Shown: positions 2,910 to 42,059, counted from the stretch's first letter. The stretch: DNA of 64,000 bases from a bacterium (GCA_016934955.1 JAFGRY010000005.1:27967-91966); one strand, 5' to 3'. Notes: generated by a model not told the origin, from the letters alone. Numbers and translations: made by a program.

Positions 2910-2924
2910 TCGTTTCCCTTCTGT

Positions 2925-4760
2925 TTATCTGATCAGGAGCATTTTCCCTCTGTCGCTCCAGCACGTCCCGTCACTCTCGATATCGAGATGGTAGATATAG
3001 ACCCCTGAAGGACCGGCAATATCCCAGCGGATCTCGTGACTGCCCGGCGGCTGCCTGACCGGATCGAGGGAGCCTACCCGCCGTCCCTGAATATCGTAGA
3101 CGGTGAGCCTCACCCGGCCCTCCCGCTGCATCTCATAGGGAATGACCGTGGATCCGTTGCACGGATTGGGATAATTCTGTCCCAGGCGGTAATCCCCTGA
3201 CCGGATCACTCCGGTTTCCCGCACCGCGGTGGACAGCTGCTCCACGATCACCCCTGAGATGACCGGCTGATCGATATCGGCGGCAAAGCGAATGTCAATG
3301 ACTCCGTCGGTGACCGCGATAGCATCCGCGCTGAAGCGATAGGCCTGCAACGCCCCGCCCGCTTCCCGGTACACATCCAGATTCTCCTGCGCCTTCTCTC
3401 CCTCGATATAGAGATCGAACACCCGGGTTCCCTCCCGCTCGTAATAGTACTCCGAGAACAGCAGCTCAAGGGCATAGACGCCGCGGGGAGCCCTGATGCG
3501 GTAGGCGGCCGGTCCCTGGCGCCAGTCGCTGAACATCGCCGTATCGCCGGCGCCGCCGACGGCATCATCGGTGTGGTAGGAGATGCCGTCCTCACATCCG
3601 TAATTCGTCTCATGGCTCCAGGCGGCATCGGTCAGCGCCCCCCCCTGCGACTGATCCGATCCGCAATTGATCCTGAGAGGGAACGAGATCTCCGGCCGCC
3701 TCACAATCATCGTATTCTGGCCGTGCATGCGGTTGACACACGCGCTTCTGTCCGTAATATTGAAACAGACAAGATTATAGGCGCGTTCCGGAACGATGCC
3801 GCTGACCCGCAGCCGCACTGTCTGTAGATCCGGCTGCAGCTCGGTATGGAGAATGGTCAGGCCCGGAATGGTATAATTGCCTGTTTCTTCCGCAGAGGTC
3901 TCTTCCACATCCTCGGAAAAACGGACGAGAACGCTGTCTCCGGCCATGGCGGCCCAGAGAACCGCGGGAGGATTGCGGTCCTCATGGCCGGTATAGGTGC
4001 CGCCGGTAAGGCAGAGGATCATCTTCCCGTCCGCGAACACGCAGTTCTCGGGAATGAAATCGACGTTGTTCCCGTTAAAGGTATGAGTCGCCTTCTGCCA
4101 GCGGATTTCATCGAACGAATCGAACTGATCGGTCCACTGCAGGGTAAAATCGCCGTTTGTGCCGCTGTCGCCCATACCGGGAGTGTAGGAATAATAGCTC
4201 ACATAGTCATACCAGGCAAAGAGGGGCAGTATTCGTTCGTCGAATTCTCCGGCCCATCCGGCGGCCGCCGGCTGCCAGATATTCATCATTATTTTCTGGG
4301 GATACTGCAGGGCGGCGATATGGTCTCCCGTCTGCCGGGCCGCCTCTTCCCCGTCGATGAACCAGGCGACATAATCGGGAGTCCACTCACATGCATATAC
4401 GTGATAATCGAGGCCGGGATCGAAATCGACATACTGATGGCGAACGTGGCTGCGCACGCCGGTTGCGATAGTGTTGAACTGAACATCATCCCGGTACCGG
4501 CCCATTATCTCGATATCGATCTCGTTCCAGGGAGTGTTCGGATAATCGTCGTTATAGGTAAAAAACGTCGATGTCTGCCCGCTGCCCCGGGAGGCCCTGT
4601 AGGACACTTCGAACCGGCCGTAAAGAAAGCTCTCCCGGGTGCGCAGTTCCGCGCCTTTGTATTCCCTGGCAAAGACGGGAGACAGGTGCGTGACCGCGGC
4701 AAGCAGGGCGAGCGTCATCAGTGCCGGCCGTGGTTTCACGGCATATCGTGTCAGAACCAT
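2925..4760 (-). CDS. GH16 beta-glucanase fused to a malectin-like carbohydrate-binding module and a T9SS C-terminal sorting domain
   Basis: 611 aa with a signal peptide. N-terminal GH16 carries an EIDIEIMG catalytic motif. The region RINCGSDQ..YRIRAPRGVYALELLFSEYYYEREGTRVFDLYIEGEK resembles malectin/CBM57-type modules. The C-terminus LGQNYPNPCNGSTVIPYEM..LTVYDIQGRRV..GVYIYHL is a type-A T9SS CTD. Confidence 0.85.
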   Translation of the reverse strand: MVLTRYAVKPRPALMTLALLAAVTHLSPVFAREYKGAELRTRESFLYGRFEVSYRASRGSGQTSTFFTYNDDYPNTPWNEIDIEIMGRYRDDVQFNTIATGVRSHVRHQYVDFDPGLDYHVYACEWTPDYVAWFIDGEEAARQTGDHIAALQYPQKIMMNIWQPAAAGWAGEFDERILPLFAWYDYVSYYSYTPGMGDSGTNGDFTLQWTDQFDSFDEIRWQKATHTFNGNNVDFIPENCVFADGKMILCLTGGTYTGHEDRNPPAVLWAAMAGDSVLVRFSEDVEETSAEETGNYTIPGLTILHTELQPDLQTVRLRVSGIVPERAYNLVCFNITDRSACVNRMHGQNTMIVRRPEISFPLRINCGSDQSQGGALTDAAWSHETNYGCEDGISYHTDDAVGGAGDTAMFSDWRQGPAAYRIRAPRGVYALELLFSEYYYEREGTRVFDLYIEGEKAQENLDVYREAGGALQAYRFSADAIAVTDGVIDIRFAADIDQPVISGVIVEQLSTAVRETGVIRSGDYRLGQNYPNPCNGSTVIPYEMQREGRVRLTVYDIQGRRVGSLDPVRQPPGSHEIRWDIAGPSGVYIYHLDIESDGTCWSDRGKMLLIR

Positions 4761-4772
4761 TGTGCCCCTCCC

Positions 4773-6107
4773 TTACCGATCCATTTTACGGCCGTAATCC
4801 AGTCTGTCATGGGTGGTGACGATGGGAAACGACGGCACCATTACCGGGAACGGGACATTCCGCTGCAGCATAAAACTGTCGATCCGGCTCAACGTGATCG
4901 CTTCAAACGCATCGGTATCGATCTCTATCCGGTCGCTGTACCGTTGCATGAGGGAGCGGATGTAGGGATCGAGATCATTCTCCAGGGTACTGAGCAGCGC
5001 CGATTCAAAGGCCTGCTTTTTTCCCCTTTCTTCCAGCCAGCGGTTCCGTTCATAGATGGCGAGAAGATTGTCCCGCCACATGCCAGCGTTCCGCTGCACC
5101 TCGGGAACCGTGTCATATCCCCGTTTGTAGGCTTCCGCGGTGATGTGCCTGTCACGGATCAGGTCGGCCACGGCCAGCTTGAACTCTTCGGCAAAATCCG
5201 CGTTCGACATCGACCGTTTCCGGAACACCAGCGGGTGGGACACCAGTTCATCCTGCAGCCTCCGCACCGTCCATATCTCACCATCGACGGAAAACAGGGG
5301 ATCATCGCTGATCCGTTCCAGAACCGCACCGCTCTCATCGAGAACGCCGGTATCGGCGTCCTTTCCCCAGAACCGCTGGTTGAACGCATCCCGCTTCTCC
5401 CCCGGCGTTTTCACATATTCGCCGGCAACGGCCGGTATCAACGCCCGGTAGGTCGCCTCCACAAACTCGAGACGCCTGCCTTTCATGAGTCTGGAGACAA
5501 ATGCCCGGTAGGCGCGTTCACCCTCGGTTCGACGCAGATATTTTTCAATATCCTGCCGCTGCCGCGCCTGCTCTTCCCCGGAGAGGTAGACCCGTTCCGT
5601 CCACCCGTTGATGAATATGAACGTATATCCGCTCTCATCTGCCACCGGTCCGATGACCTGATGTTTTGCCGGTGCGCCGCTGTAGAGCGCGTCGAGCACG
5701 CCTCCGCTTTCAACCTCGCTGAAGGTGACCCGGCGCTGCGGCAGGTCAGCGGAACCGGTCAGCCGCTCGAACGTCTGCCGAAAACTGCTGCTGTCCCGCA
5801 TGGCGCGGGCCGCGGCCTCGGCCTCGGCCCCGCCGGTGACGGTGAAGTAGGAGATGGTGTAATTTCTTCCGGCCAGCCGGTACCGTTCATCGATGTCAGA
5901 TTCAGCGACCCTGGCTTTCCGGTAGAAATCGTTGTAAAAGAGCCATTGCCGCATCGACTGCTCTTTTCTGCCCCTGAGATAGGCCTGGAAATAGGGGGTG
6001 CGGGCAAGCGCCGAGCTGTCCCCCGCTTCGACGGCCAGCAGCTTCTCGGCGATCAGTGAATTGAGGATGATCTTGCGGTGGATATAGTTGTCCCTTTTAC
6101 AATACAC
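4773..6107 (-). CDS. Hypothetical protein, possibly a SurA-N/PpiD-like periplasmic chaperone; true start probably upstream (to ~6299/6302)
   Basis: 444 aa from GTG at 6107. By eye the N-terminal part (..TISVNEFIRRAEYT.., IILNSLIAEKLL) resembles SurA N-terminal-type chaperone domains. No rotamase motif was recognised. The in-frame upstream sequence encodes a signal-peptide-like segment (see finding). Confidence 0.4.
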   Translation of the reverse strand: MYCKRDNYIHRKIILNSLIAEKLLAVEAGDSSALARTPYFQAYLRGRKEQSMRQWLFYNDFYRKARVAESDIDERYRLAGRNYTISYFTVTGGAEAEAAARAMRDSSSFRQTFERLTGSADLPQRRVTFSEVESGGVLDALYSGAPAKHQVIGPVADESGYTFIFINGWTERVYLSGEEQARQRQDIEKYLRRTEGERAYRAFVSRLMKGRRLEFVEATYRALIPAVAGEYVKTPGEKRDAFNQRFWGKDADTGVLDESGAVLERISDDPLFSVDGEIWTVRRLQDELVSHPLVFRKRSMSNADFAEEFKLAVADLIRDRHITAEAYKRGYDTVPEVQRNAGMWRDNLLAIYERNRWLEERGKKQAFESALLSTLENDLDPYIRSLMQRYSDRIEIDTDAFEAITLSRIDSFMLQRNVPFPVMVPSFPIVTTHDRLDYGRKMDR

Positions 6108-6328
6108 CGGTCTGATCGTATATTCCGCACGCCGGATGAATTCATTGACCGAAATCGTTCTGTCGCCGACGCGTGCCAGAATCTGCTCCGCCGCTTCCGG
6201 AGCCCGGTCTTTCCCGCATCTGCTCAGGCAGAGCGCCGTTAAAATTGATATGGACAGCAGGGCGAACCCGTGCTGTCCATACCGTCGTTTCCGAGTAATG
6301 ATATCTCTTCTCCGTGTCAGGTAATACC

Positions 6329-7390
6329 CTAGAACATCAGTCCTATGTTGTACGCGTGAATGCTGCCGAGGATCCCTATTTCCCGGTAGGAGTACTCGAC
6401 TTTCAGGCTTCTGCCCTGCATCATATGCATCACCACGCCGCCCCCGAATGAGAGACCGTATTCGGAATCGACCATAAAGAGCGCCTTGTAGCCGCCCCGC
6501 AGGAAGAACTGCCAGCCGTTCGGTGTCGTCAGCTGATACTGCCCCCCGAGATTGACGGACTCACTGTTGTTGTTGGGATGAACGGCATCCACCGCCAGGG
6601 TCAGCCGATGCTGCGAGGTGACGAACGGGTTCACCGACACGCCGACCCGGAAAAGAAGCGGAAGCTCCCATCCCTCCGTCTGAAACATGCCGGGGACATC
6701 CTGATAGTTGCCGCCCTCGTTCGGCAGGATATCGATGGGATTGAGCAGATTTTTCCCGGAATACTGCATTTTGGTGCCGAAATTGGATATGCTCATGCCG
6801 ATATTCATGCCGTCTCCCCTGTCGCCCGTGGGCGAGAAGAAGTGGGTCTGCACAATCACTCCCAGATCCACGGCAAACGCGTTGGCCGATGACTGCCATA
6901 TCTGGGAGGAAATATATTTTGCCGTGGCGCCGAAACTGAACCAGTTGGCCAGTTTGCGCGAGTAGGAAATGCCGAACGAGTAATCGGCGGCGTTGAACAG
7001 CTCCCCGGTCCCGTCCTGCATGTCCAGGGTGGTGACCTCATTACGGCCGTAATCCATCTGCACGAGACTGAGGGCGATCGTTCCCACGTTGCTCAACGGC
7101 ATGCCCGCGGCAAATGACACCGCATTGATATCGAGTATCCACGGCTGATAATTGAACTGAACCTCCCGCTGCTCCATATAGGCCAGACCGGCGGGATTCC
7201 AGTAGACCGCTGACAGGTCCGACGCCACGCTCACGTAGGCGTCTCCCATGGCCGTACCCGCGGAGCCGTAGCCGATTTCAAGAAAATTGGCGGCCGTGGT
7301 CCCCTGGCGATACGGTTCCTGCCCGAAACAGAGAACCGCTGTAAAAACAATGAGCAGTACGATCGCCGTTTTGTATGGTTGTATTCTCAT
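6329..7390 (-). CDS. PorV/PorQ-family (FadL-like) outer-membrane beta-barrel protein
   Basis: The likely start is M18 of the ORF (MRIQPYKTAIVLLIVFTAVLCFGQ signal). GTTAANFLEIGYGSAGTAMGDAYVSVASDLSAVYWNPAGLA matches the conserved PorV/PorQ N-terminal signature as I recall it. The sequence alternates in a beta-strand pattern and ends in a terminal aromatic (..NIGLMF). Confidence 0.7.
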   Translation of the reverse strand: MRIQPYKTAIVLLIVFTAVLCFGQEPYRQGTTAANFLEIGYGSAGTAMGDAYVSVASDLSAVYWNPAGLAYMEQREVQFNYQPWILDINAVSFAAGMPLSNVGTIALSLVQMDYGRNEVTTLDMQDGTGELFNAADYSFGISYSRKLANWFSFGATAKYISSQIWQSSANAFAVDLGVIVQTHFFSPTGDRGDGMNIGMSISNFGTKMQYSGKNLLNPIDILPNEGGNYQDVPGMFQTEGWELPLLFRVGVSVNPFVTSQHRLTLAVDAVHPNNNSESVNLGGQYQLTTPNGWQFFLRGGYKALFMVDSEYGLSFGGGVVMHMMQGRSLKVEYSYREIGILGSIHAYNIGLMF

Positions 7391-7437
7391 TTTTGTTGCC
7401 TCACCTATCTGTTGTCTGCCGATACGATGTGTTGGTA

Positions 7438-10400
7438 TCACTTGATGATCGCGAATTTGCCCATCTGTTCATCGCCGGTCTTCGCCTTGAGATGGTAAAG
7501 ATACATACCGGCTGCGACTTCCAGGCCTTCCTTGGTCAGTAAATCCCAATGCACAAGACCGTTGTCCGCATCATTGTTGACATCGATCTCATCGACCAGC
7601 ACACCGCTGACCGTAAAAATCCTGATGGTGCACTCGGCGGGGATATTGGTAAAGATGATGCGCCGCCGCTGATTGAGCCTCCAGTTGCCTACCGCGGGTT
7701 CCATGGCATTGGTGGCGACATAGGGATTGGGGACGACCTTCACTTTCTTGAGCGTTTCGGCCAGTTCCGCTTCATCAAGGGGCGGGGTCTCACTGACGGT
7801 GAAGAGCAGTGAATCACGGTCAAAGAAAGGACGGCGGAAGGTAACCGAGTACACATCGTTGGCCTCGGGGAAATCGGTGCTGCTCATAAAGTCGATGATG
7901 AACGCCGTTCCTGCCCAGCGGTCCTCGTCGTTCACCGGCCCCACGAGCACCCGGTCCCCGGCCATGGAGAATATACCGTCACCGTTCATGTCCTGGACCA
8001 CGAGGTCCATCACATCATACGAACCGTCGACGCCCGGGAACGATGTATTCACCACATAAAACGGGAAGGATTCCCCGGTGAGCAGTGCGTTTCGATTGAT
8101 CCGGGTTCCGTTTTCATCCCTCATCGTTTTTACGGTTACGACGCCGGTATAGGCGGTGTCGCTGTCGGTGAATCGTATTTCGTAATCCCATGGGAAGTAC
8201 TTCGATTCCTCGACGGTGGGAACGATGCGTATGGGAGCGTCTCCCACGAGCCACCCGGAGTGCTGGGAATCGTACACGGGCTCGGTAAGGGGCTGATAGA
8301 TGTTGAGCCGCATTCCTTCGAAAATATCGGTATGCAGCGTTACACCGCTGCGCAGATACGAGACACCGAGGGTATCATTGCGGATAATATTCTCGAAGGC
8401 ATATTTTTCCGGCGTTTCCTGATAGACCGGCCGGCCGCCGTCGGTAACATCATGCACGGCGAACCCGCTGGTGACGTACTGGAACCCCAGGGCATAGTCT
8501 TCCACGGTGCTCACCGTATCGATGCTGAACGTAACCCGGTACTGATGACCCGCTTTCAAATCTCCCTTGGCAAGGATCTCCGGCTCCACGGTTCCCGCGC
8601 CGAAGACAAGACCGTTGTCGTCACTGTCGACCTCTGGGCCTGTATATCCCGCGGCCTGCGGGTGAGGAACCACTATCTGCACGTTCGGCCCCACCGAACG
8701 CACGGCTTCGCTCTCGTCGAGATCGATGTAGATGCTGTTTTCGGACGGGGCAATACCCGGCCCGATATCCGGCGCGCCGTAGTCATAGGCCACCAGCGCA
8801 TAGTAATAGGTCCTGCCGTTCTGAACATCGTTATCGACGAAATAGTGGGTGATGCCGCTGTCGTCGCCGAGGTAGTACCCCACGCCGTTGACAAGACCGA
8901 AATCGGTGAAGCCGGTGATGCCGTCGATAAGATCGCACTGGAATATCGGTTTTTTCAGCATCGGCGTGCCGTAGCCGTCGGTAATCACTTCCGCATCCGA
9001 CATGCGCTTGTCGGTGGCGCGGTAGAGCTTGTATCCTTCGAAATCATTTTCATTCCTGAGGAAGGGATCCCGGGTCTTGGTGTCCGCCCGGTCATCCCAG
9101 CTGAGAATGACCTTGCCGTCCGCGGCGGTCGCCTGCAGGGTCGGCATTTCCGGCGGTTTCGCGAACCGGTAATCACTTTCATAGATAACCTGCACGATGC
9201 GCTTCGCCTCAAAGAGAGCGGGAGCGCTGTGCGCCTCGGAATTCAGGCCGGAAAGGGCATCATAGGAATGCACCTCCGCCATGGAGATCCGCTCGGTCCT
9301 TCCCTGGTAGAGCGAAAACGGACCGGAAGCGAAGGTCTCGATGAGATTCGAAATATTGCCCAGGTACTCGACCAGCGTGTCGCTTCCCAATATCTCCCAC
9401 ATCGATTTGTCACCCCGGAACCAGTGATACTCCGATGAGTGGCTGGGCACCGGAAAGAGCTGAAAACTGGTGAGACCGACCATGTCCGATTCGGACACAT
9501 CGGTTTCCGCGAAATCGGGTTCGCTGTCCCCTTCCCGGCGGTCGGGCATGTGGTTGCACTCACCTTCGTCAGGACCGGTATAATTGAGCTCGGCGGGGCC
9601 GACACCATCCAGGCCGACGTCGTCGCCGGCATCTTCCGTGATCTGATAGATGCCGTCGCCGTTCAGATCATCGCCGTCGTCCCAGTCCTGGTCTTCATCC
9701 GCGTCCCAGTGGACCCGCAGATCCTCCGCTTTGAGATTGTAAAAATCGAGAAAATTCGTCAGATTCGTGATGCCGTAGGTGGGATCGACTTCGGCCGTGG
9801 CATTGTTGTCACGCTGCTCATCGGTCAGGCCGTCCTCATCGTTATCCACACCGTCCTGGGAGATGCCGGGACTTTCCAGGTAGGCGAATCCCATGACGCC
9901 GGGGGAAAGGCCGCCCTGTCCGATGCCGTCCACATCCCAGGAGTAGGCCAGATCGATCTTTCGGTCAAAGTATCCGAGTTCATCGTCACGTTCGCCGCCG
10001 ATGCCGTTGTCCACCCAGTAGCCGAAGGCCACCTCAGGAATATCGTAGTCGGAAATGTTGGCGATGGTGTATTCCCAGAAAATGCAGTCCCGGGCCTGGG
10101 GATTGTTCCACTGAAATCCCCGCTGTTCCACCCGCAGCCCCAGGCCGCCCCAGGGCTGCCCGTACTGGATGGTCACGTCCGGCCGCTTGTCGCCGATACG
10201 CACGCCGGGCCGGGGGTAGTATTTGACTCGGTCTTCCGGCCCCAGGTATTCGAGGTCCTGGGCGTCATTGACGACGAAATAGGTTTCCAGATCGGCGCCG
10301 ACCTTGCCCCGCCCGAACCGGCCGTTCCACTCGCCGGGCCAGACAAGCTGATCGCCGGAGGCGGGCCAGCCCGCTGTCGGCCAGGAACTCGGGTGGTTGC

Positions 10401-10884
10401 TCATGGCGGGGTATTCACTGTTTTCATTAAAATATCCGAACACGGGATAAAAACCCCATTCGATGGTCCCGGTGGGATTCGTGTCCATCTCTTCCCGATA
10501 ACTGGTCTGCAGGTAGTAGAGCGTGTCCAGATCGGTCCTGCCCATGGCGGCCTGAATATCGGTCACGGGTATGGTATCGTTTTCGAGATAGACTCTGGCG
10601 CCCACGAGCAGGGCGATCCCGTCGAGCATACGCACGCCGTCGAGATTATTCGGCCAGCGGGACCACTGTGACCCCACGGCGCCGTTCACCCACTTCGCCA
10701 GCTCGGTTGTGTTTTGAAAATAGAGGTACACCCGGTTTCCGGTCATGTACCCTTCCCGCTCCGCGGCAATATCACCGGCCGGATCGTCGGGACCTTCGTA
10801 CAGCTTTCCCTGGCTCCACAGCGGACTCACACCGACGATAAGACAGAGCAGGGCTGCACTGAGAACTGTCATCACCTTTTTCAT
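7438..10884 (-). CDS. Large secreted protein of unknown function with acidic calcium-binding-type repeats and a T9SS C-terminal sorting domain
   Basis: The ORF runs to 10926; the likely start is MKKVMTVLSAALLCLIVGVSPLWSQG at 10884. It contains thrombospondin-type-3-like acidic loops (DGVDNDEDGLTDEQRDN; DADEDQDWDDGDDLNGDG). The CTD-like end reads VVPNPYVATN..CTIRIFTVSGVLVDEI..GMYLYHLKA..GKFAIIK. There is no SusD-like TPR lipoprotein character. Confidence 0.6.
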   Translation of the reverse strand: MKKVMTVLSAALLCLIVGVSPLWSQGKLYEGPDDPAGDIAAEREGYMTGNRVYLYFQNTTELAKWVNGAVGSQWSRWPNNLDGVRMLDGIALLVGARVYLENDTIPVTDIQAAMGRTDLDTLYYLQTSYREEMDTNPTGTIEWGFYPVFGYFNENSEYPAMSNHPSSWPTAGWPASGDQLVWPGEWNGRFGRGKVGADLETYFVVNDAQDLEYLGPEDRVKYYPRPGVRIGDKRPDVTIQYGQPWGGLGLRVEQRGFQWNNPQARDCIFWEYTIANISDYDIPEVAFGYWVDNGIGGERDDELGYFDRKIDLAYSWDVDGIGQGGLSPGVMGFAYLESPGISQDGVDNDEDGLTDEQRDNNATAEVDPTYGITNLTNFLDFYNLKAEDLRVHWDADEDQDWDDGDDLNGDGIYQITEDAGDDVGLDGVGPAELNYTGPDEGECNHMPDRREGDSEPDFAETDVSESDMVGLTSFQLFPVPSHSSEYHWFRGDKSMWEILGSDTLVEYLGNISNLIETFASGPFSLYQGRTERISMAEVHSYDALSGLNSEAHSAPALFEAKRIVQVIYESDYRFAKPPEMPTLQATAADGKVILSWDDRADTKTRDPFLRNENDFEGYKLYRATDKRMSDAEVITDGYGTPMLKKPIFQCDLIDGITGFTDFGLVNGVGYYLGDDSGITHYFVDNDVQNGRTYYYALVAYDYGAPDIGPGIAPSENSIYIDLDESEAVRSVGPNVQIVVPHPQAAGYTGPEVDSDDNGLVFGAGTVEPEILAKGDLKAGHQYRVTFSIDTVSTVEDYALGFQYVTSGFAVHDVTDGGRPVYQETPEKYAFENIIRNDTLGVSYLRSGVTLHTDIFEGMRLNIYQPLTEPVYDSQHSGWLVGDAPIRIVPTVEESKYFPWDYEIRFTDSDTAYTGVVTVKTMRDENGTRINRNALLTGESFPFYVVNTSFPGVDGSYDVMDLVVQDMNGDGIFSMAGDRVLVGPVNDEDRWAGTAFIIDFMSSTDFPEANDVYSVTFRRPFFDRDSLLFTVSETPPLDEAELAETLKKVKVVPNPYVATNAMEPAVGNWRLNQRRRIIFTNIPAECTIRIFTVSGVLVDEIDVNNDADNGLVHWDLLTKEGLEVAAGMYLYHLKAKTGDEQMGKFAIIK

Positions 10885-10974
10885 ACGAAACAACCTCATA
10901 TAGTAACGATTATTGTACACCATCATCCGGCGTCGGGCCGGCCATGATCCTGTTTTCTCTCCGGTCCCGGCGGC

Positions 10975-13662
10975 CTAAAACATCAGCTCCAGACCCGCCT
11001 TGATCAGCCGGGGAGACGCATACATGGACGGATTCTGAACAACATCCTCAAAGGTATTGAAATCGCTGTGATGAGCGGCGATATCCGTATCTCTGATGAT
11101 TGCCGTATACGCCCTGCCGGTTTCTGCATTTACCCACACCTCGTTCAGGGTGTCGAACAGATTGTAGACATTCAGCACCAGCTTCGCTTTGAACGGACCG
11201 GGTATGGGGATGTTGTAGTATCCCGCGAGGTCAACGCTGAAGCGTGAAGGGGCGGCCGCATTGTTCGGATAGAGGTTCACCCGCGAGAGCATGCTTTCAC
11301 TGACCGGGGACCAGGTGTAGGGAGATCCGCTGTTGTAATAGCCGGTCATGGTCGCGCCGTAGGCGGCGGTATTGTACCCGATCGTGAGGTTGAACGTATG
11401 CCGCTGATCCCAGCTCATGGGAATGAGGCGCGGGATCGGATCCATGCTGTTTCCGGCCCGGGTGAATGTCTGCAGGGGATTGTCCGCGTTTCCGCGGGTG
11501 TACTGCAGGGTGTAGTTTAAATAGGAGGAAAAGGAGCCCCGCACGAAATCGAATTTCAGCTCGAGCCCTTTCGCGTTGCCGTAATCTTTATTTGAATAGA
11601 GTCCGTATTCTATCTGGTTGAAGGTGGTGATCACCTTGGCGCTGAGCATATCGTAGATGTCGCGGTAATACAGGGCCACTTCCATACCCATGCCTTCCAT
11701 CAGCTGCTGCCAGAGCCCGATCTCGTACTGTATCGTTTTTTCCGGCTTGATCTGCGCGTTGCCCATGGTGGTGGCATAATCGGCGGGAGCGACCTGAAAC
11801 GCGTGGTTCTGATAGAGCGCGTACAGGGGCGGCATTTTCCGGAAATGTCCGTAGCTGAAACGCAGGAGCGCTGCTTCGCCGAGCTGGTAGGCGAGACCGA
11901 ACCGGGGGCTGAGCTGTATCTTCGCGTCCGCGTCGGGATACTCCGACATTTTCTCGGGATCGTCGGGGAAATCAAGCTGATTGGCCGGGTTGCGCCGCTG
12001 TGACGGATATACCGTTTTCGGGTTAAAGTACTCATAGCGGAGACCGACATTGATCACCATCTCGTCGAATTCCATTTTATCCTGTATATACGCGGCGAAC
12101 TCCACCGGTTTCACCCGGTAGACATCGGAATAGATCGATGAATCGGGCAGGATTGAGGGTACGTACAGTTCATTTTCCCACTGCGTGCCGTAGTAGTAGT
12201 TGCGAATCTGATGGTACTGATTGTCAAGGTCGTGCAAAATCAGATGGGCGCCGGTTTTTATGTTGTGCTGCTGGGTGATCTGCCAGCTGAAATCGAATTT
12301 TCCCGAATATTCGGTCTTTATGCGGATATCGTGATCCTTGTTCTGACCGCCGGTAAAAAACCCGGGACCGGTGTTCCGCAAAAACCGGTCATGCAGATAT
12401 CCTTCATCGAACGGATTTTCAAACAGGTAATACCCGTGATCATGCCGCATCGCCGATAATTTCAATTCATAAAACATCCGCTTCGTGAGCAGATGGTTGA
12501 TTTCCAGGGCGGCGATTCCCGACTCGCGATGGGTCGAGGACATGCCGTCGGGATTGTATTTGAACGCGTGATCATACCCGAACCAGTTGTCACGGTTGTA
12601 GGTTGCCAGCAGGGAGGTTCTGAATCCGTTAAAGGGCAGGGCGGTGATTTTTGTCATCACCGAAAGGTTTTTACTTTTGTTCATGGGCACATAGGCGCCG
12701 TCGCCCGTGTGCTCGGAATACCAGTCGGCCGGATCCACCGATTCGAAATTACTGTAGTCTCCGGGATTGAAACGGCGAAGGCCGTTGAGATGGTTCTTGT
12801 TGTCCTGATAACGGACATTGGCAAAGAACGAAAGCTTGTTGCCCAGGATGGGGCCGCTCATGCTCATTTTGTAGTCCTGATTTCTGGTCAGTTCCCCGTC
12901 GTCAAGACCAATGAAAATATCCTTGTTGGGAGTGAAATAGTTGCCCAGCTGTCCCGAGATCATGCCGTGGAATGTACTGCTTCCCCCCTTGGTCACCGCG
13001 TTGACGATACCGCTCATTGCCTGACCGTATTCGGCGTTGAACGTACCGGTGATCACTTCCAGATCGGCCACCGCCTCGGGTTCGAGGTCCACTGATTTAC
13101 CGGCGCCTCCGAATGATTCGGTTACCGGGATTCCGTCAATGAGATAGGCGACTTCCGTAAGGCGTCCTCCCCGGAAGTGTCCTTCCACCACACCCGCCTG
13201 CATACTGATCGCAGCCCCGATATTCTCGATGGGCATGACATCGATCTGTTCACTGGACACATTCCGGATCGAGCTGGTTTGATCTTTCTTCATAGACACC
13301 ACGCTGGCCTGCACAACCACGGGAGCCAGTTCCACCACGCTCTGGTTTAGCTCTATATCGTAATATGATGTCCGGTTTACGGAAACCCTGACATTTTCAA
13401 TCTGCTTGGTCTGGTAGCCCATGTAGAGCACCCGCAGTGTGTAGGTGCCCGGCGGCACGTTGAGGATGGTAAATTCCCCGTTCTTATCGGTAGCCGTTCC
13501 CCGTGACGTGCCCTCGATGACCACATTTGCATATTCCAGGGCCTTCCCGTTGGTGGCGTCGGTCACTTTGCCCTTGATTTTTCCGGTTGTCTGCGAGAAA
13601 AGCACTCCTGTCATGGAAAAACAAACCAACAGGAACGCGAAAATCGAGCCTTTCCCTTTCAT
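10975..13662 (-). CDS. TonB-dependent outer-membrane receptor with N-terminal CarboxypepD_reg-like domain
   Basis: The ORF runs to 13794; the likely start is MKGKGSIFAFLLVCFSMTGVLFSQ at 13662. A carboxypeptidase-regulatory-like fold is present (GKIKGKVTDATNGKALEYANVVIEGTSRGTATDKNGEFTILNVPPGTYTLRV). This is followed by a plug region, a long beta-barrel, and the terminal ..AGLELMF. Confidence 0.9.
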   Translation of the reverse strand: MKGKGSIFAFLLVCFSMTGVLFSQTTGKIKGKVTDATNGKALEYANVVIEGTSRGTATDKNGEFTILNVPPGTYTLRVLYMGYQTKQIENVRVSVNRTSYYDIELNQSVVELAPVVVQASVVSMKKDQTSSIRNVSSEQIDVMPIENIGAAISMQAGVVEGHFRGGRLTEVAYLIDGIPVTESFGGAGKSVDLEPEAVADLEVITGTFNAEYGQAMSGIVNAVTKGGSSTFHGMISGQLGNYFTPNKDIFIGLDDGELTRNQDYKMSMSGPILGNKLSFFANVRYQDNKNHLNGLRRFNPGDYSNFESVDPADWYSEHTGDGAYVPMNKSKNLSVMTKITALPFNGFRTSLLATYNRDNWFGYDHAFKYNPDGMSSTHRESGIAALEINHLLTKRMFYELKLSAMRHDHGYYLFENPFDEGYLHDRFLRNTGPGFFTGGQNKDHDIRIKTEYSGKFDFSWQITQQHNIKTGAHLILHDLDNQYHQIRNYYYGTQWENELYVPSILPDSSIYSDVYRVKPVEFAAYIQDKMEFDEMVINVGLRYEYFNPKTVYPSQRRNPANQLDFPDDPEKMSEYPDADAKIQLSPRFGLAYQLGEAALLRFSYGHFRKMPPLYALYQNHAFQVAPADYATTMGNAQIKPEKTIQYEIGLWQQLMEGMGMEVALYYRDIYDMLSAKVITTFNQIEYGLYSNKDYGNAKGLELKFDFVRGSFSSYLNYTLQYTRGNADNPLQTFTRAGNSMDPIPRLIPMSWDQRHTFNLTIGYNTAAYGATMTGYYNSGSPYTWSPVSESMLSRVNLYPNNAAAPSRFSVDLAGYYNIPIPGPFKAKLVLNVYNLFDTLNEVWVNAETGRAYTAIIRDTDIAAHHSDFNTFEDVVQNPSMYASPRLIKAGLELMF

Positions 13663-13851: not shown

Positions 13852-16302
13852 TTATTTCATCAGCATCATTTTTTTCATGAATGTGTGTGAATCCGTTTTC
13901 AGGCGATAGAAATAGATGCCCGACGCAAGACTGCTGCCGTCGAATTCCACACGGTACGAACCGGCGTTCCGAACCTCGTTGATCAGCGTCTCAACCTTGC
14001 GGCCCATGATGTCGAACACTTCCAGCTTCACATGGGTGCGAGCCGGCAGGCTGTACTCGATATGGGTTACCGGGTTGAACGGGTTGGGATAGTTCTGGGA
14101 CAGCATGAACACAGAGGGCTGGTCCGCGTATTTTTCCTCGACCGCGGTGACGCCGGCAGTGTCGCCGATCCAGGTGTAGAACCACTGCTCCACCGTTGAC
14201 CATTGAGTGTCCTCGGCGTTCGGTGAAAATCCCAGATTTCCTTCCCAGGTGCCGCCGTCGTTATCATGGAAATAGATATCCAGGGGCACTTTCATACCGC
14301 GCACGGGGTGGAAACGGGTATCTCCGGTCGCTACAACGGAATCAAGGGGAATCTTGACTTCGACGATATAGTCTGAACCGCCCAGGTCACTGAAATAGTA
14401 GTTGTCATCAGCAGGCGTCCAGAGCGCTCCCATATTGGCATAATCACGTACGAAATTGTTTTCATTCGCATACATGATGCAGTCAGGCTCCGTGCCGCGT
14501 CTGATAGACTGATGGGGACTGCCGGTCTGGTTGTAGAGACCGAGGAATATCTGGAACGCATCCTGATCCCACCAGTTGCCCGCGCCAAACGAGTAGGAGT
14601 CATCGATGACATCGGCGGCTACGTAGAGATTGTTGTCATCGATCGCCATATACACAGTGGCCGAGAGATCATCGGAATCGTCGACACTTTCCCACACGTT
14701 GTCGGTCTCGGGGGTGATGACAAAGGGCATGATGCCCGAAGCATCCCATTCACTGAGGTCGCCGTCCGCCGCAAAATTTGCCGGAACATTCAGAGAAATC
14801 GTCGGAATACCTTTGGCGGTGTTGGTGGTGCCGCCGGCGCTCGTGCCGAAATCACCGGTGTTGCCGCCTGCATCCGTGCAGGTCACCGCGTAGTAATAGG
14901 TCACATCAGTGTCGGCAAGCGGATAGACCAGCCAGTGGGTTGCCTGATAGGAGTCCTCCGACGTGAGGCCGGCGGCGATTTTGTCAACACCGCCGGCTGC
15001 AAGATCGGTGATCGGATTAAGGCTTGCGTACACAGCATAGGACGCTTCCGATTCACCCGGGACAGGAGTCCAGTAGACGAGGTTGTAATAGGGACCTGCA
15101 GAGGCGCCGACGCCTGTGGGCGCCAGGGGCGCGACAACATCGATGCTCGGATTACCGGTCCACAAATTGTCAAAATAGATATTCTTGCCGCCGACTCCAT
15201 TCCCTTCGGCCATCATTTGAAAGACGACCACATTGGAAGTGTCAAAGCTGGCAGATCCATCCTTGAACGAAAAATCAGCCAGGGCAATAGCGTAATCATG
15301 CCATGCGCCGTCATCTATGGGCGTCCAGTTGTATCCCACTTTGTCGACACCGTCTTCCATCTGAAAACGCAGACCGGGGGTGCCGTCATCGACTTTCGCG
15401 GTGAATTTCAGACTGTCCTGGGTCCAGACACTCGACATATTGTAGGCGGGATCGATGTTCCAACCGGCACCGGCCCAGCCGTCGCCGTGTGTATAGACAA
15501 GGGCGTTGGTGCCTGCTGTATACCCTTCATCATCCATGACCGCCAGGGCGGCGCCCCAGGTAAACCCTTCGAGACTCGAAGAAAGCGTCTTGCCGTTGAA
15601 GAAAATAAAGGGGACACTTCTGGCGCCGTAGAGCTTGATCTCATCGAATGAAATTTTCACGGAATCGGCCGGAAGATTATTGGAAGCGTCCCAGCCCGAT
15701 GTCACTACCGTGAGATTGAATCCGAGGATCTTGTTTCTGTCAAGCATTCTGTTATTATTGGGATTGTTCCAGCTGTCAGGAATCAATACAAAGCCCTCAT
15801 CATTGGGAAGTACCGAGCCGTCCGACTCTCTTTCCAGCAGGGGAATCCTGAGCTGCACCCAATCGGTTTCCGTATCGAGAATTGTCGCATTCTCATAGAT
15901 ATATTCTTCCTGGTCTGCGTCGGGAGTCGGTTTGTCGGCGATATGAATCCTGAAATACAGGTTTTCAGGCACGGTCCCGGCTTCGCGCACTTTGATCCAG
16001 ACACTGATCGAATCGTATGTGCTCCAATCCATGAGATTGTCTTCATCCACCCGATAATAGATCTGGGCATAACTGCCCCACTGATGATATTCTCCGACGA
16101 CGGCATCCATGTCCATTGATCCGATGCCTTCGACGAAATCGGTCGTGTTGTCCCTCAGGATAATCTTGCTGAGGCCTCCTTCGGTACCCAGATCATACAG
16201 ACTATCGGCCACAGAAGAATCGAACGTGTCGAGCACGAACTGTCCATAGGCGATAAAAGGGACCAGTATCAGGAAGATCCCGGTCAGTAATACTTTCTTC
16301 AT
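13852..16302 (-). CDS. Secreted putative glycan-binding protein (CBM-like modules, FN3, CBM9-like domain) with T9SS C-terminal sorting domain
   Basis: The ORF begins at TTG 16317; the better start is ATG 16302 (MKKVLLTGIFLILVPFIAYGQ), 8 nt after GAGGAGG. An FN3-like stretch is present (PLAPTGVGASAGPYYNLVYWTPVPGE..YYYAVTCTDAGGNTG). A CBM9/DOMON-like region follows (DGDLSEWDASGIMPF..ATVYMAIDDNNLYVAADVIDD..WDQDAFQIFLG). The type-A CTD reads SQNYPNPFNPVTHIEYSL..LEVFDIMGRKV..GIYFYRLK. Confidence 0.6.
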   Translation of the reverse strand: MKKVLLTGIFLILVPFIAYGQFVLDTFDSSVADSLYDLGTEGGLSKIILRDNTTDFVEGIGSMDMDAVVGEYHQWGSYAQIYYRVDEDNLMDWSTYDSISVWIKVREAGTVPENLYFRIHIADKPTPDADQEEYIYENATILDTETDWVQLRIPLLERESDGSVLPNDEGFVLIPDSWNNPNNNRMLDRNKILGFNLTVVTSGWDASNNLPADSVKISFDEIKLYGARSVPFIFFNGKTLSSSLEGFTWGAALAVMDDEGYTAGTNALVYTHGDGWAGAGWNIDPAYNMSSVWTQDSLKFTAKVDDGTPGLRFQMEDGVDKVGYNWTPIDDGAWHDYAIALADFSFKDGSASFDTSNVVVFQMMAEGNGVGGKNIYFDNLWTGNPSIDVVAPLAPTGVGASAGPYYNLVYWTPVPGESEASYAVYASLNPITDLAAGGVDKIAAGLTSEDSYQATHWLVYPLADTDVTYYYAVTCTDAGGNTGDFGTSAGGTTNTAKGIPTISLNVPANFAADGDLSEWDASGIMPFVITPETDNVWESVDDSDDLSATVYMAIDDNNLYVAADVIDDSYSFGAGNWWDQDAFQIFLGLYNQTGSPHQSIRRGTEPDCIMYANENNFVRDYANMGALWTPADDNYYFSDLGGSDYIVEVKIPLDSVVATGDTRFHPVRGMKVPLDIYFHDNDGGTWEGNLGFSPNAEDTQWSTVEQWFYTWIGDTAGVTAVEEKYADQPSVFMLSQNYPNPFNPVTHIEYSLPARTHVKLEVFDIMGRKVETLINEVRNAGSYRVEFDGSSLASGIYFYRLKTDSHTFMKKMMLMK

Positions 16303-16326
16303 AATTTTCCTCCTCAACAGTTAAAA

Positions 16327-18100: not shown

Positions 18101-18139
18101 CGGTCACCCGGGAAGATAGGATATTAAAACAACATGAAA

Positions 18140-18155
18140 AGCAACAAGTATACCA
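18140..18155 (-). promoter_or_regulatory. Candidate sigma-54 (-24/-12) promoter of the SSS symporter
   Basis: The minus strand reads TGGTATACTTGTTGCT, against the consensus TGGCAC-N5-TTGCW. The GG and GC doublets are correctly spaced and the TTGCT -12 element is complete. It lies 39 nt upstream of ATG 18100. A sigma-54 enhancer-binding protein is encoded at 40589..42043. Confidence 0.5.
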
Positions 18156-18350
18156 CTATCCTGGATCATTGTAAATACGTTACTTATGCACCTTTTGGGC
18201 CTCGTATAAACCGGCGATCATTATCAAATCGAATATCCGTCATTATTAAAATAATAACAGCACGGTGTTCCGTATCGCAGCGCCCGCCCGGTTTTTCAGG
18301 AGCATATCTCTGCTGGATTCTCTTTTCCCCGCCGCGGGCCGGCGCCGCCG

Positions 18351-19808: not shown

Positions 19809-19858
19809 CTGACCCTCCTTTTCCATCGGCCTTCCGCCGTCTCCGGCAGCGCCGGGAT

Positions 19859-20848: not shown

Positions 20849-20855
20849 GCTTCTG

Positions 20856-23227: not shown

Positions 23228-23262
23228 ACCATCCTCCGCCTCTTCGACATGGGTCACATCGT

Positions 23263-25440: not shown

Positions 25441-25501
25441 CAGTAAATTCCCGTTCCTGCTGTTTTCACATACCTCTACCGTGCACGGCCGCGCCCGGCG
25501 C

Positions 25502-31172: not shown

Positions 31173-31264
31173 GGTCTCCTTAGAGTTACTGAATATCTCA
31201 CATCACCAGTTGTCTGTGCACTGTCCTCTTGCAATCCGCCGGCACGGCGTTCCCGCCGGACGTC

Positions 31265-33442: not shown

Positions 33443-33515
33443 TTTCGCTGTTTCTCCACTCACGGACGCGAACCCCGCGGTCCGCCCGTATAATATAATT
33501 ATTCAGCTCCGCCGG

Positions 33516-38361: not shown

Positions 38362-38370
38362 AGGCAGAAA

Positions 38371-40565: not shown

Positions 40566-40588
40566 GGCCGAACGCAGAAGGACACCGG

Positions 40589-42043: not shown

Positions 42044-42059
42044 TGGGTGCCCGGTCCTT

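What the first reader, a model, noticed from the sequence alone, without database searches (positions are those of the whole stretch)
6329..13662. SusD-less capture module: TonB-dependent receptor + 1148-aa T9SS cargo of unknown function + PorV-like barrel
**Seen.**
- The CarboxypepD_reg-type TonB-dependent receptor is followed after 90 nt by a 1148-aa secreted protein. That protein has acidic Ca-binding-type loops and a T9SS CTD.
- A PorV/PorQ-like barrel follows after 47 nt.
- No ~500-600-aa TPR lipoprotein (SusD-like) occurs anywhere in the window.

**Established.** In Bacteroidia, glycan loci are defined by SusC/SusD pairs, and SusD is the lid/binding partner of the receptor.

**Inference.** The large CTD protein occupies the SusD position. 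It may be the surface glycan-binding or lid partner, tethered through the T9SS/PorV route rather than by lipidation. This would be an alternative architecture for TonB-dependent glycan import in an FCB lineage.
Basis: partly seen in the sequence, partly recalled or inferred. Interest (0 to 1): 0.65.

Follow-up and report, generated by a model that had tools for sequence, protein, structure and literature searches.

The report
SusD-free glycan uptake cassette with PorV-tethered partner
Inside a laminarin-degrading gene cluster, an outer-membrane importer is always encoded next to a large uncharacterised secreted protein and a dedicated PorV-like barrel; this conserved trio appears to stand in for the classic SusC/SusD pair in several bacterial phyla related to Bacteroidota.

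Summary
On the minus strand lie a TonB-dependent receptor (10975-13662), a 1148-aa secreted protein with no Pfam or NCBIfam family ("BIG", 7438-10884) and a PorV/PorQ-family barrel (6329-7390). The gaps are 90 and 47 nt. No SusD occurs in the window.

They sit in a β-1,3-glucan locus (GH16, GH3, GH5, GH17, GH30, GH149).

The trio is not a chance adjacency:
- All 59 related loci with enough flank carry it.
- These come from Calditrichota, Marinimicrobia, KSB1, Ignavibacteriota and Rhodothermales, next to varied CAZymes (GH26, GH125, GH9, GH130).
- The three proteins co-diverge.

BIG's C-terminal domain most resembles the uncleaved CTDs of PorZ and PorU, which dock on PorQ and PorV. Its divergence tracks the PorV-like barrel, while its N-terminal part tracks the receptor. 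A confident AlphaFold model (pLDDT 88.5) gave no match to a catalytic fold.

Two further cassette genes were missed: an upstream CBM9+CTD protein and a downstream PrsA/SurA-like lipoprotein, which is not SusD.

Best reading: a SusD-independent, T9SS-tethered accessory for glycan import. The binding or lid role itself is untested. I found no published description.

The parts
13852..16317 (-). 821-aa secreted protein with a CBM9 domain and a canonical type-A T9SS CTD. It is a candidate surface glycan-binding protein and the first gene of the cassette.
   Evidence: Pfam CBM9_1 46.5 bits and Por_Secre_tail 43.4 bits; TIGR04183 41.8 bits. A CTD-ending gene lies within 700 nt upstream of the TBDR in 49 of 61 related loci. 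In 19 of these it is a full-length CBM9-type homologue.
10975..13662 (-). TonB-dependent receptor, 895 aa. It has a signal peptide, a carboxypeptidase-regulatory-like N-terminal domain, a TonB-box-like PVVVQA, a plug and a barrel. It is not SusC by the curated model.
   Evidence: Pfam. TIGR04056 SusC/RagA scores 83 bits against a cut-off of 368, matching the N-terminal region only. A PDB sequence search hits only the NTE and plug pieces, with no SusC barrel. It lies directly upstream of BIG in 64 of 67 loci with enough flank.
7438..10884 (-). BIG: a 1148-aa secreted protein of an undescribed family. Layout: signal peptide 1-25; N-terminal β-rich domain ~30-575 with invariant acidic Ca-type loops (340-470); FN3-like 576-725; variable β-sandwiches 726-1045; PorZ/PorU-like CTD 1046-1148.
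   Evidence: No Pfam or NCBIfam family. Relatives: 6037 clusters at 50% identity. AF2 pLDDT 88.5 and pTM 0.75. Foldseek top hits are PorZ 5m11 and PorU 6za2. The PDB profile search hits only the PorU and PorZ CTDs. Conservation profile.
6329..7390 (-). PorV/PorQ-family 14-strand-type outer-membrane barrel, 353 aa. It is the proposed cognate dock for BIG's retained CTD.
   Evidence: NF033709 scores 217.6 bits against a cut-off of 90, but it is below the PorV, PorQ and PorV2 equivalog cut-offs. Pfam PorV 42 bits. PDB PorV 6h3i_F at 6.7e-13. It is adjacent to BIG or the TBDR in 66 of 70 loci.
4773..6302 (-). ~505-aa PrsA/SurA-like foldase lipoprotein. It is a probable dedicated periplasmic chaperone. 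It has no canonical start codon in frame.
   Evidence: Homologues align over 97-99% of the N-extended query and carry SurA_N_2, SurA_N_3 or Rotamase_2. All homologues have a lipobox Cys. The family profile hits the PrsA foldase 4wo7 at 6e-5 and no SusD structure. tblastn detected it in 34 of the 83 related loci.
2049..4760 (-). Two GH16 β-glucanases that close the operon-like run. One is GH16+malectin (2925-4760) and one is GH16 (2049-2909).
   Evidence: Pfam. The same enzymes follow the cassette in L001, L004 and L005.
16490..43526 (-). The rest of the β-1,3-glucan utilisation locus: SSF symporter, GH30, aldo-keto reductase, GH17, GH2-like, GH3 (three copies), GH149 phosphorylase, MFS_2, GH5+CBM4_9, GH5+CBM6 and a σ54 two-component regulator.
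   Evidence: Pfam. NCBIfam GH149 at 1624 bits.

Best explanation
This is the core of a SusD-independent polysaccharide-utilisation locus for β-1,3-glucan (laminarin).

**Proposed mechanism.**
1. T9SS-secreted GH16 and GH5 enzymes and the CBM9+CTD protein act on the polymer at the cell surface.
2. The TonB-dependent receptor imports the oligosaccharides.
3. Periplasmic GH3, GH17 and GH30 enzymes trim them, and SSF and MFS carriers take them into the cytoplasm, where the predicted GH149 phosphorylase acts.
4. BIG is exported by the T9SS. Like PorZ on PorQ and PorU on PorV, it keeps its C-terminal domain. That domain docks non-covalently on the PorV-family barrel encoded next to it.
5. BIG's Ca-stabilised N-terminal two-thirds is thereby held at the receptor. 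There it acts as the receptor's extracellular accessory: substrate capture, lid, or scaffold.
6. The PrsA/SurA-like lipoprotein chaperones these large envelope proteins in the periplasm.

**Shown.** Gene identities, locus context, conserved synteny, co-divergence, CTD resemblance, and no match to a catalytic fold.

**Inferred.** T9SS export, CTD retention and docking, contact with the receptor, and any glycan binding.
For: **CAZyme context.**
- The locus context is CAZyme-rich.

**Conservation of the trio.**
- 59 of 59 loci with both flanks hold the trio. They span Calditrichota, Marinimicrobia, KSB1, Ignavibacteriota and Rhodothermales.
- The whole trio is duplicated in tandem in L085.

**Generic core role.**
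- The same cassette sits with GH26, GH125, GH9, GH130, GH2, ABC importers and LacI regulators.

**Co-divergence.**
- Identities to the window proteins co-vary: BIG-TBDR r 0.96 and BIG-PorVL r 0.92, against BIG-CBM9 protein r 0.23.
- Partial Mantel tests show that BIG's N-terminal regions follow the TBDR (0.74 given PorVL) but not PorVL (0.035, p 0.19).
- BIG's CTD has the strongest PorVL-specific signal (0.255, p 0.001).

**CTD resemblance.**
- The best hits for BIG's CTD are PorZ and PorU, by NCBIfam, by PDB sequence and by Foldseek.
- The CTDs of PorU and PorZ are known to stay uncleaved and bound to PorV and PorQ. Cognate PorV-like barrels have been proposed to protect such CTDs (PMC10202324).

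**No sign of catalysis.**
- A confident model gave no match to a catalytic fold.
- No Cys, His or Ser is invariant across the family.

**No SusD.**
- None was found.
Against: - There is no direct evidence that BIG binds glycan or touches the receptor or the barrel. No multimer model could be run.
- BIG's CTD falls below the curated type-A thresholds, so even T9SS export is an inference.
- T9SS core genes are not in the window.
- Distance-matrix correlations are inflated by shared ancestry, and partial Mantel tests are known to be liberal.
- Orthologues are unusually conserved (62-67% over 1150 aa across phyla). That level is more typical of machinery or enzymes than of SusD-like binders.
- The upstream CBM9 protein could supply all the glycan binding, leaving BIG some other job.
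- A few loci lack a partner within the fetched flank (L035, L048). Some carry two or three BIG paralogues per receptor (L014, L070).
Confidence: 0.6

Rival explanations
1. BIG and the PorV-like barrel form a locus-specific T9SS attachment or sorting platform, a private analogue of PorZ-PorQ or PorU-PorV. They receive and hold the locus's own CTD-bearing enzymes and CBM protein beside the receptor. BIG binds cargo or LPS rather than glycan. Its role is assembly of a surface 'utilisome', not substrate capture.
For: - BIG's CTD is closest to PorZ and PorU.
- Some long family members carry PorZ-like Reg_prop β-propellers.
- A CTD-ending gene precedes the receptor in 49 of 61 loci.
- Por_Secre_tail is the commonest family among flanking ORFs.
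- High cross-phylum conservation fits machinery.
Against: - BIG lacks the PorU C25 peptidase domain and, in this window, the PorZ propellers. It scores 15.8 and 21 bits against the PorU and PorZ models, whose cut-offs are 420 and 260.
- BIG's N-terminal part co-diverges with the receptor, not with the barrel.
- Paralogous copies diverge to ~33% identity alongside different CAZyme sets. That suggests substrate-linked specialisation.
Confidence: 0.2
2. BIG is a surface enzyme of a new family, a glycanase or lyase that produces import-sized oligosaccharides at the mouth of the receptor.
For: - Orthologues are strongly conserved, with many invariant acidic residues.
- Weak but high-probability Foldseek matches exist to β-sandwich parts of GH116 (7w2t) and dextran dextrinase (9ju0).
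Against: - Those matches have TM 0.15-0.26 and correspond to non-catalytic β-sandwich regions.
- BIG is almost all β-strand and loops, with no (α/α)6 or TIM-barrel element.
- The invariant acidic residues lie mostly in DxDxDG-type Ca loops.
- The same family sits in loci for β-glucan, β-mannan, α-mannan and cellulose-type substrates. One catalytic specificity would not fit that spread.
- Every locus already encodes dedicated endo-enzymes.
Confidence: 0.1
3. The receptor-like barrel, BIG and the PorV-like barrel are not about nutrient import. They serve another surface function, such as adhesion, S-layer-like coating or envelope biogenesis, and merely travel with CAZyme genes.
For: - Foldseek lists S-layer and adhesin arrays among the weak hits.
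- A foldase lipoprotein is part of the cassette.
Against: - The receptor has a complete plug and a TonB-box-like segment.
- The cassette is embedded in CAZyme, importer and regulator loci in every case examined.
- It is duplicated with different CAZyme sets.
Confidence: 0.05

Closest known systems
SusC/SusD-type polysaccharide utilisation loci of Bacteroidota (pedal-bin SusCD core, utilisomes)
   Same: - A TonB-dependent transporter with a carboxypeptidase-regulatory-like N-terminal domain is encoded with an obligatory extracellular partner gene.
- That pair sits inside a CAZyme, inner-membrane importer and regulator locus.
- The core is reused with many different CAZyme sets and is duplicated within genomes.
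   Different: - The receptor fails the curated SusC/RagA model.
- The partner is not a ~550-aa TPR lipoprotein. It is a 1150-aa β-rich protein with a T9SS-type CTD.
- A third obligatory gene, the PorV-family barrel, has no counterpart in SusCD.
- Anchoring is proposed to be by CTD-barrel docking rather than by lipidation.
PorZ-PorQ and PorU-PorV pairs of the T9SS attachment complex (Porphyromonas gingivalis)
   Same: - A large CTD protein whose CTD resembles those of PorZ and PorU is encoded next to a PorV/PorQ-family barrel.
- In the known pairs the CTD is not cleaved and holds the protein on the barrel (PMC10202324).
   Different: - BIG has no C25 peptidase domain and, in this window, no PorZ β-propellers.
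- The barrel is below the PorV, PorQ and PorV2 equivalog cut-offs.
- The pair is multi-copy, sits in CAZyme loci and is always coupled to a TonB-dependent receptor. It is not a single housekeeping complex.
Type-B CTD proteins with cognate PorP/SprF-like barrels (e.g. SprB-SprF in Flavobacterium johnsoniae)
   Same: The logic is the same: a T9SS substrate is encoded next to its own outer-membrane barrel, which retains it at the surface.
   Different: - The barrel here belongs to the PorV family, not to PorP/SprF.
- The CTD is PorZ/PorU/type-A-like, not type B.
- The function is linked to nutrient import rather than to gliding adhesins.
SusD-less TonB-dependent glycan loci of Proteobacteria (CUT loci of Xanthomonas, marine Gammaproteobacteria)
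   Same: TonB-dependent glycan import occurs without SusD (review PMC13543919).
   Different: Those receptors have no conserved large surface partner and no PorV-like barrel, and those organisms lack a T9SS.

Membership tests
SusC/SusD PUL core | Receptor meets the SusC/RagA model (TIGR04056) | tested here: not met
   The score is 83.1 bits against a cut-off of 368.25. Only residues 72-197 (the N-terminal domain) align. A PDB sequence search finds no SusC barrel.
SusC/SusD PUL core | Adjacent SusD-like lipoprotein (Pfam SusD families) | tested here: not met
   - No SusD-family hit appears in any window ORF scanned.
- None appears in 7 Pfam-annotated related loci.
- The one ~505-aa lipoprotein in the cassette matches the PrsA foldase and SurA_N, not SusD.
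SusC/SusD PUL core | Co-localised CAZymes, inner-membrane sugar importers and a regulator | tested here: met
   The window holds GH16 (two copies), GH3 (three copies), GH5 (two copies), GH17, GH30, GH149, SSF, MFS_2 and a σ54 two-component system.
T9SS type-A CTD cargo | C-terminal domain meets TIGR04183 or PF18962 | tested here: inconclusive
   - For BIG, TIGR04183 scores 17.7 bits (cut-off 23), and PF18962 is not reported.
- There are weak FlgD_ig and CHU_C hits.
- The fold and motif are CTD-like, and the closest hits are PorZ and PorU.
- The neighbouring CBM9 protein passes clearly.
T9SS type-A CTD cargo | Organism possesses a T9SS (SprA/Sov, PorK-N, PorU/V) | not testable with these tools
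Several canonical CTD proteins in the locus imply a T9SS.
PorV/PorQ family outer-membrane barrels | Meets NF033709 (PorV_fam) | tested here: met
   217.6 bits against a cut-off of 90, over residues 48-368. PDB PorV at 6.7e-13.
PorV / PorQ / PorV2 proper (equivalogs) | Meets NF033710, NF033711 or NF052325 | tested here: not met
   Scores and cut-offs are 103.3 against 250, 90.7 against 220, and 65.1 against 325. It is a distinct clade of the family.
PorU sortase / PorZ | Full-length match to NF033707 or NF052228 (C25 peptidase domain; double β-propeller) | tested here: not met
   Only the last ~70 residues align, scoring 15.8 and 21.1 bits against cut-offs of 420 and 260. No Cys or His is invariant across the family.
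PorU/PorZ-like retention on a cognate barrel | CTD uncleaved and bound to the barrel | not testable with these tools
   This needs proteomics or a complex structure. The indirect support is CTD-specific co-divergence with the barrel.
SurA/PrsA/PpiD-type foldases (downstream lipoprotein) | SurA_N-type chaperone domain with or without a parvulin domain | tested here: inconclusive
   - The window protein alone gives SurA_N_3 at E 0.16.
- Homologues carry PF13623, PF13624 or PF13145.
- The family profile hits PrsA 4wo7 at 6e-5 over 184 positions.

The most novel reading that the evidence does not exclude
Several non-Bacteroidota FCB phyla build their glycan-import 'utilisomes' on a different principle from Bacteroidota. 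These phyla include Calditrichota, Marinimicrobia/SAR406, KSB1, Ignavibacteriota and Rhodothermota. Here the TonB-dependent transporter's obligatory extracellular partner is a 1150-aa protein of a new family. It is exported by the T9SS and pinned to the membrane by a private PorV-like barrel. A dedicated PrsA/SurA-like foldase accompanies them. Together this would functionally replace the lipoprotein SusD, acting as a lid or substrate funnel. It would be a second, independently evolved solution to selective glycan capture, present in thousands of environmental loci.
Probability: 0.4. Interest if true: 0.85.

Novelty: new variant of a known kind. Interest (0 to 1): 0.72.

Why it matters
SusC/SusD pairs are the marker used to find and count polysaccharide utilisation loci, so loci built on this cassette are invisible to current PUL predictors.

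The carriers matter ecologically. Marinimicrobia, Calditrichota and KSB1 are abundant in oceans and sediments, where laminarin is a major carbon flux.

If BIG and the PorV-like barrel are the receptor's partners, three things follow:
- A new protein family (>6000 clusters at 50% identity, no Pfam model) gains a role.
- T9SS 'cognate barrel' tethering extends from housekeeping components to nutrient uptake.
- A SusD-independent route to selective glycan import becomes available for study, and a new marker triad for annotating glycan loci in uncultured FCB lineages.

It is testable, because Caldithrix abyssi, a cultured species, carries an orthologue (Calab_3088).

Tried and rejected
- **First AF2 model.** The run on 34 close orthologues failed for residues 1-720 (pLDDT below 50). 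A diverse 64-sequence alignment fixed this.
- **Foldseek.** The whole multidomain model gave only low-TM matches. The N-terminal domain has no convincing PDB counterpart.
- **Sequence and profile searches on BIG.** PDB, Pfam on the whole protein, on five fragments and on 41 divergent members, and NCBIfam gave nothing beyond the CTD, an FN3 hint, and Reg_prop in four long members.
- **Paralogue idea.** The second 1161-aa no-Pfam protein (25502-28987) is unrelated to BIG. It is a GH149 phosphorylase.
- **Hidden SusD idea.** The ~505-aa lipoprotein is not a hidden SusD. It is PrsA/SurA-like.
- **PorU-like peptidase idea.** Rejected, because BIG has no C25 domain and no invariant Cys or His.
- **Promoter and terminator scan.** Counts were at shuffle level and uninformative.
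- **RNA scans.** Rfam and tRNA scans of the window were empty.
- **Literature.** Seven searches and two reviews found no description of the triad. The papers on Caldithrix, Melioribacter and the Jermuk laminarinase do not mention it.
- **Contig look-ups.** Look-ups for P0064 and P0001 were not on record.

Full report
**1. What is in the sequence**

Four long ORFs lie head to tail on the minus strand across the reported interval.

- **Receptor.** The ORF is 10975-13794. The plausible start is MKGKGSIF at 13662, giving 895 aa. It has a signal peptide, a CarbopepD_reg_2/CarboxypepD_reg domain, a Plug and a TonB_dep_Rec_b-barrel.
- **Large protein, here called BIG.** The ORF is 7438-10926. NCBI's call for the identical protein JXO52_01905 is 1153 aa.
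- **Barrel.** The ORF is 6329-7441. The start MRIQPYK at 7390 gives 353 aa, the size of its homologues.
- **Gaps.** With these starts the gaps are 90 nt and 47 nt, exactly as reported.

The barrel is a member of the PorV/PorQ family. NF033709 scores 217.6 bits against a cut-off of 90. It is below the equivalog cut-offs for PorV, PorQ and PorV2. Its best solved relative is Flavobacterium johnsoniae PorV at 6.7e-13.

The receptor is not a SusC by the curated model. TIGR04056 scores 83 bits against a cut-off of 368, matching the N-terminal domain only. A PDB sequence search hits only the N-terminal-domain and plug pieces.

BIG has no Pfam or NCBIfam family. This holds whether it is searched whole, in five fragments, or through 41 divergent relatives.

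**2. The surroundings**

The window is one long, co-directional β-1,3-glucan (laminarin-type) utilisation locus. In order of transcription it contains:

- a σ54 response regulator and a histidine kinase;
- GH5+CBM6, GH3, GH5+CBM4_9 and GH3;
- an MFS_2 carrier;
- a GH149 β-1,3-glucan phosphorylase (NCBIfam 1624 bits);
- GH3, a GH2-like protein and GH17;
- an aldo-keto reductase, GH30 and an SSF symporter;
- an 821-aa CBM9 protein with a canonical T9SS CTD (13852-16317);
- the receptor, BIG and the PorV-like barrel;
- an ORF with no Pfam hit (4773-6107);
- GH16+malectin and GH16.

None of the 34 substantial ORFs scanned hits a SusD family. The only TPR proteins are Ser/Thr kinases at the far end of the window.

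**3.

The ORF after the barrel is listed from GTG 6107 (444 aa). The same frame stays open upstream and encodes RKRRYGQHGFALLSISILTALCLSRCGK, a lipoprotein-type signal. There is no ATG, GTG or TTG in that stretch.

Homologues are 500-520 aa and align over 97-99% of the extended translation. They begin with a clear lipobox.

Some homologues carry SurA_N_2, SurA_N_3 or Rotamase_2. A profile of the family hits the foldase PrsA (4wo7, 6e-5) and no SusD structure.

So there is a ~505-aa lipoprotein in the cassette, but it is a PrsA/SurA-like chaperone, not a SusD.

**4. Is the trio conserved?**

BIG has about 1,900 detectable relatives in the word-indexed search. The top 120 are 62-100% identical over the full length. 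They come from KSB1, Calditrichota (including cultured Caldithrix abyssi, Calab_3088) and Marinimicrobia.

An exhaustive profile search finds 6037 clusters at 50% identity with E ≤ 1e-3, and 616 with E ≤ 1e-30.

A scan of one genome per species returned at least 567 confirmed relatives. The best 80 are from Calditrichota, Neomarinimicrobiota, KSB1, Ignavibacteriota, Rhodothermales and some MAGs labelled Bacteroidota.

I searched the 84 loci held at that point (L001-L084; 83 after dropping the duplicate L002) with the five window proteins by tblastn.

| Test | Result |
|---|---|
| Loci with ≥2.9 kb upstream that hold the receptor | 66 of 67 (64 adjacent) |
| Loci with ≥1.3 kb downstream that hold the barrel | 69 of 70 (66 adjacent) |
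| Loci with both flanks that hold the full trio | 59 of 59 (54 directly adjacent) |
| Loci with a CTD-ending gene ≤700 nt upstream of the receptor | 49 of 61 |

Further variations on the theme:

- A few loci have the order receptor-barrel-BIG (L022, L027, L031, L038).
- Some have two or three BIG paralogues in tandem (L014, L070).
- L085 has the entire trio duplicated in tandem.

**5. What travels with the cassette?**

The close orthologues sit with GH16, GH3 and GH5 enzymes, as in the window.

Divergent members (~33% identity) sit with other enzymes:
- GH26+CTD in L086;
- GH125 with ROK and MFS in L085.

Among 103 flanking ORFs of divergent loci, the commonest families are:

| Family | ORFs |
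|---|---|
| Por_Secre_tail | 16 |
| ABC permeases | 15 |
| ABC binding proteins | 10 |
| GH16 | 9 |
| GH3 | 7 |
| Malectin | 7 |
| Rotamase_2 | 7 |
| LacI regulators | 6 |
| SSF | 5 |
| GH9 | 4 |
| GH130 | 4 |
| GH2 | 2 |

No SusD family is among the 25 commonest. The cassette therefore behaves like a generic locus core that is reused for different glycans. That is the evolutionary behaviour of SusC/SusD.

**6. Co-divergence**

Across loci, identity to the window proteins co-varies tightly for the trio.

| Pair | r |
|---|---|
| BIG-receptor | 0.96 |
| BIG-barrel | 0.92 |
| Receptor-barrel | 0.94 |
| BIG-CBM9 protein | 0.23 |

I then built pairwise distance matrices from 64 complete sets and ran partial Mantel tests.

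| BIG region | Partial r with receptor, given barrel | Partial r with barrel, given receptor |
|---|---|---|
| N-terminal (30-340) | 0.735 | 0.035 (p 0.19) |
| Ca-loop region (341-575) | 0.673 | 0.009 (p 0.38) |
| FN3-like (576-725) | 0.568 | 0.090 |
| Middle (726-1045) | 0.561 | 0.133 |
| CTD (1046-1148) | 0.428 | 0.255 (p 0.001) |

This gradient is what one expects if the CTD contacts the barrel and the N-terminal body is coupled to the receptor. Such tests are liberal on phylogenetically structured data, so I treat this as suggestive only.

**7. What BIG looks like**

A first AlphaFold run on close orthologues failed for the N-terminal 720 residues. A diverse 64-sequence alignment gave a confident model, with mean pLDDT 88.5 and pTM 0.75.

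The model has these parts:
- a signal helix (2-23);
- a large β-rich N-terminal body (~30-575) with long ordered loops;
- an FN3-like domain (576-725);
- further β-sandwiches (726-1045);
- a C-terminal β-sandwich (1046-1148).

The acidic loops are real and are the family's signature. D347, D349, D351, E356, D396, W401, D422, G424, G427, E455, D462, E465 and D467 are invariant across members down to ~31% identity. They form DxDxDG-type Ca-binding motifs.

No Cys, His or Ser is invariant, which argues against a peptidase.

Foldseek against the PDB gives these results:
- The best hits are PorZ (5m11, 8e-7) and PorU (6za2, 2e-5).
- FN3 and Ig arrays follow.
- The only enzyme-related matches are low-TM β-sandwich similarities to GH116 and dextran dextrinase.
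- No match to a catalytic fold appears among the hits.

A PDB profile search returns only the CTDs of PorU and PorZ (E 0.011 and 0.021). NCBIfam's best hit for the C-terminus is PorZ (9e-5), ahead of the generic type-A model, which BIG fails at 17.7 bits against 23.

Conservation follows a clear pattern:
- Across paralogues it is highest in the Ca-loop core, the FN3 domain and the CTD.
- It is lowest in residues 720-1040.
- Among orthologues, residues 120-720 are about 85% conserved.

**8. How it most likely works**

Established knowledge on the T9SS comes from the review PMC10202324:
- T9SS substrates carry a CTD.
- PorV binds CTDs and shuttles cargo.
- PorU and PorZ are themselves CTD proteins. 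Their CTDs are not cleaved and hold them on PorV and PorQ.
- Cognate PorV-like barrels have been proposed to protect such CTDs.

T9SS is reported across the FCB superphylum (PMC11205867).

On that basis, the best-supported reading has these steps:

1. BIG is exported by the T9SS and keeps its PorZ/PorU-like CTD.
2. The CTD docks on the private PorV-family barrel encoded beside it.
3. BIG's Ca-stabilised body is thereby placed at the TonB-dependent receptor.
4. There it acts as the receptor's extracellular accessory.
5. The CBM9+CTD protein is the likeliest dedicated glycan binder.
6. The PrsA/SurA-like lipoprotein is a dedicated periplasmic foldase for these large envelope proteins.

What is shown: the gene content, the locus context, the conservation and co-divergence, the CTD resemblance, and the lack of any match to a catalytic fold.

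What is inferred: T9SS export, CTD retention, docking, contact with the receptor, and any glycan-binding or lid function. I put 0.6 on this reading.

The main rival (0.2) is that BIG and the barrel form a locus-private attachment or scaffold platform for the locus's CTD enzymes rather than a substrate-binding lid. A novel enzyme (0.1) and a function unrelated to import (0.05) are less likely, for the reasons given under the rival explanations.

**9. Comparison with what is known, and novelty**

The system works like a SusC/SusD core but is not a member of that family. The receptor fails the SusC model and there is no SusD.

The BIG-barrel pair works like PorZ-PorQ or PorU-PorV but is not either of them. 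All the equivalog models fail, and BIG has neither the peptidase domain nor the propellers.

Seven full-text searches found no description of a receptor + large CTD protein + PorV-like barrel cassette. Neither did a 2026 review of bacterial glycoside transporters, a 2024 T9SS review, or the papers on Caldithrix, Melioribacter and a Marinimicrobia laminarinase. Subscription-only papers were not searchable.

I class it as a new variant of a known kind: TonB-dependent glycan loci built around a new accessory architecture and a new protein family.

**10. Verdict**

The alternative architecture and the tethering logic are well backed by comparative evidence. The specific binding or lid role is untested.
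It has five genes, including a CTD-bearing CBM protein and a foldase lipoprotein.
- Interest is 0.72.

Noticed in passing
window 6107-6302 (minus strand): The foldase-like lipoprotein gene has no ATG, GTG or TTG upstream of GTG 6107. Yet the open frame encodes a lipoprotein signal (…LTALCLSRCGK) that all homologues possess. NCBI's model (JXO52_01895, 444 aa) is therefore N-terminally truncated. Either a non-canonical start (ATC/ATT near 6302) is used or the MAG has an indel here.
   Followed up: partly
window 25502-28987 (minus strand): A 1161-aa protein with no Pfam hit is a GH149 β-1,3-glucan phosphorylase by NCBIfam (1624 bits against a cut-off of 1150). This points to phosphorolytic use of imported laminari-oligosaccharides. 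It is unrelated to BIG despite having the same length.
   Followed up: yes
window 28980-31172 (minus strand): The MFS_2 sugar carrier ORF is 730 aa, and the Pfam match comes in two stretches. It is much longer than the 427-position MFS_2 model, so it may have an added N-terminal region, a mis-called start or a fusion.
   Followed up: no
window 40589-44898 (minus strand): A σ54-dependent response regulator, a histidine kinase and an extracellular solute-binding protein sit at the head of the locus. They are a candidate oligosaccharide-sensing regulator, unlike the SusR, HTCS or ECF-σ regulators of Bacteroidota loci.
   Followed up: no
window 48622-51615 (minus strand): A 997-aa ORF has no Pfam family. 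Its only NCBIfam hit is a faint one to a lactonase-type NosZ propeller (E 0.0028).
   Followed up: no
window 56792-63991 (minus strand): Three consecutive Ser/Thr protein kinase genes with C-terminal TPR arrays lie here. The last one runs off the window. These are the only TPR proteins in the window.
   Followed up: no
L085 265-14297; L014 1-11754; L070 1094-12656: The cassette is modular. L085 has two complete receptor-BIG-barrel trios in tandem. L014 has three BIG paralogues in a row before one barrel. L070 has one receptor, two BIG paralogues and one barrel.
   Followed up: partly
P0296 (1495 aa), P0312 (1592 aa), relatives of BIG: Some long family members carry an inserted PorZ-like β-propeller region before the CTD (Pfam Reg_prop; NCBIfam PorZ up to 51 bits, below its cut-off). 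This hints at an evolutionary link between this family and PorZ.
   Followed up: partly
orthologues in Calditrichota, KSB1, Marinimicrobia: Laminarin-type orthologues of BIG, the receptor and the barrel are 55-67% identical between different phyla. The flanking CBM9 protein is only 35-46% identical and the foldase 41-49%. This means either very strong constraint on the trio or lateral transfer of the cassette.
   Followed up: no
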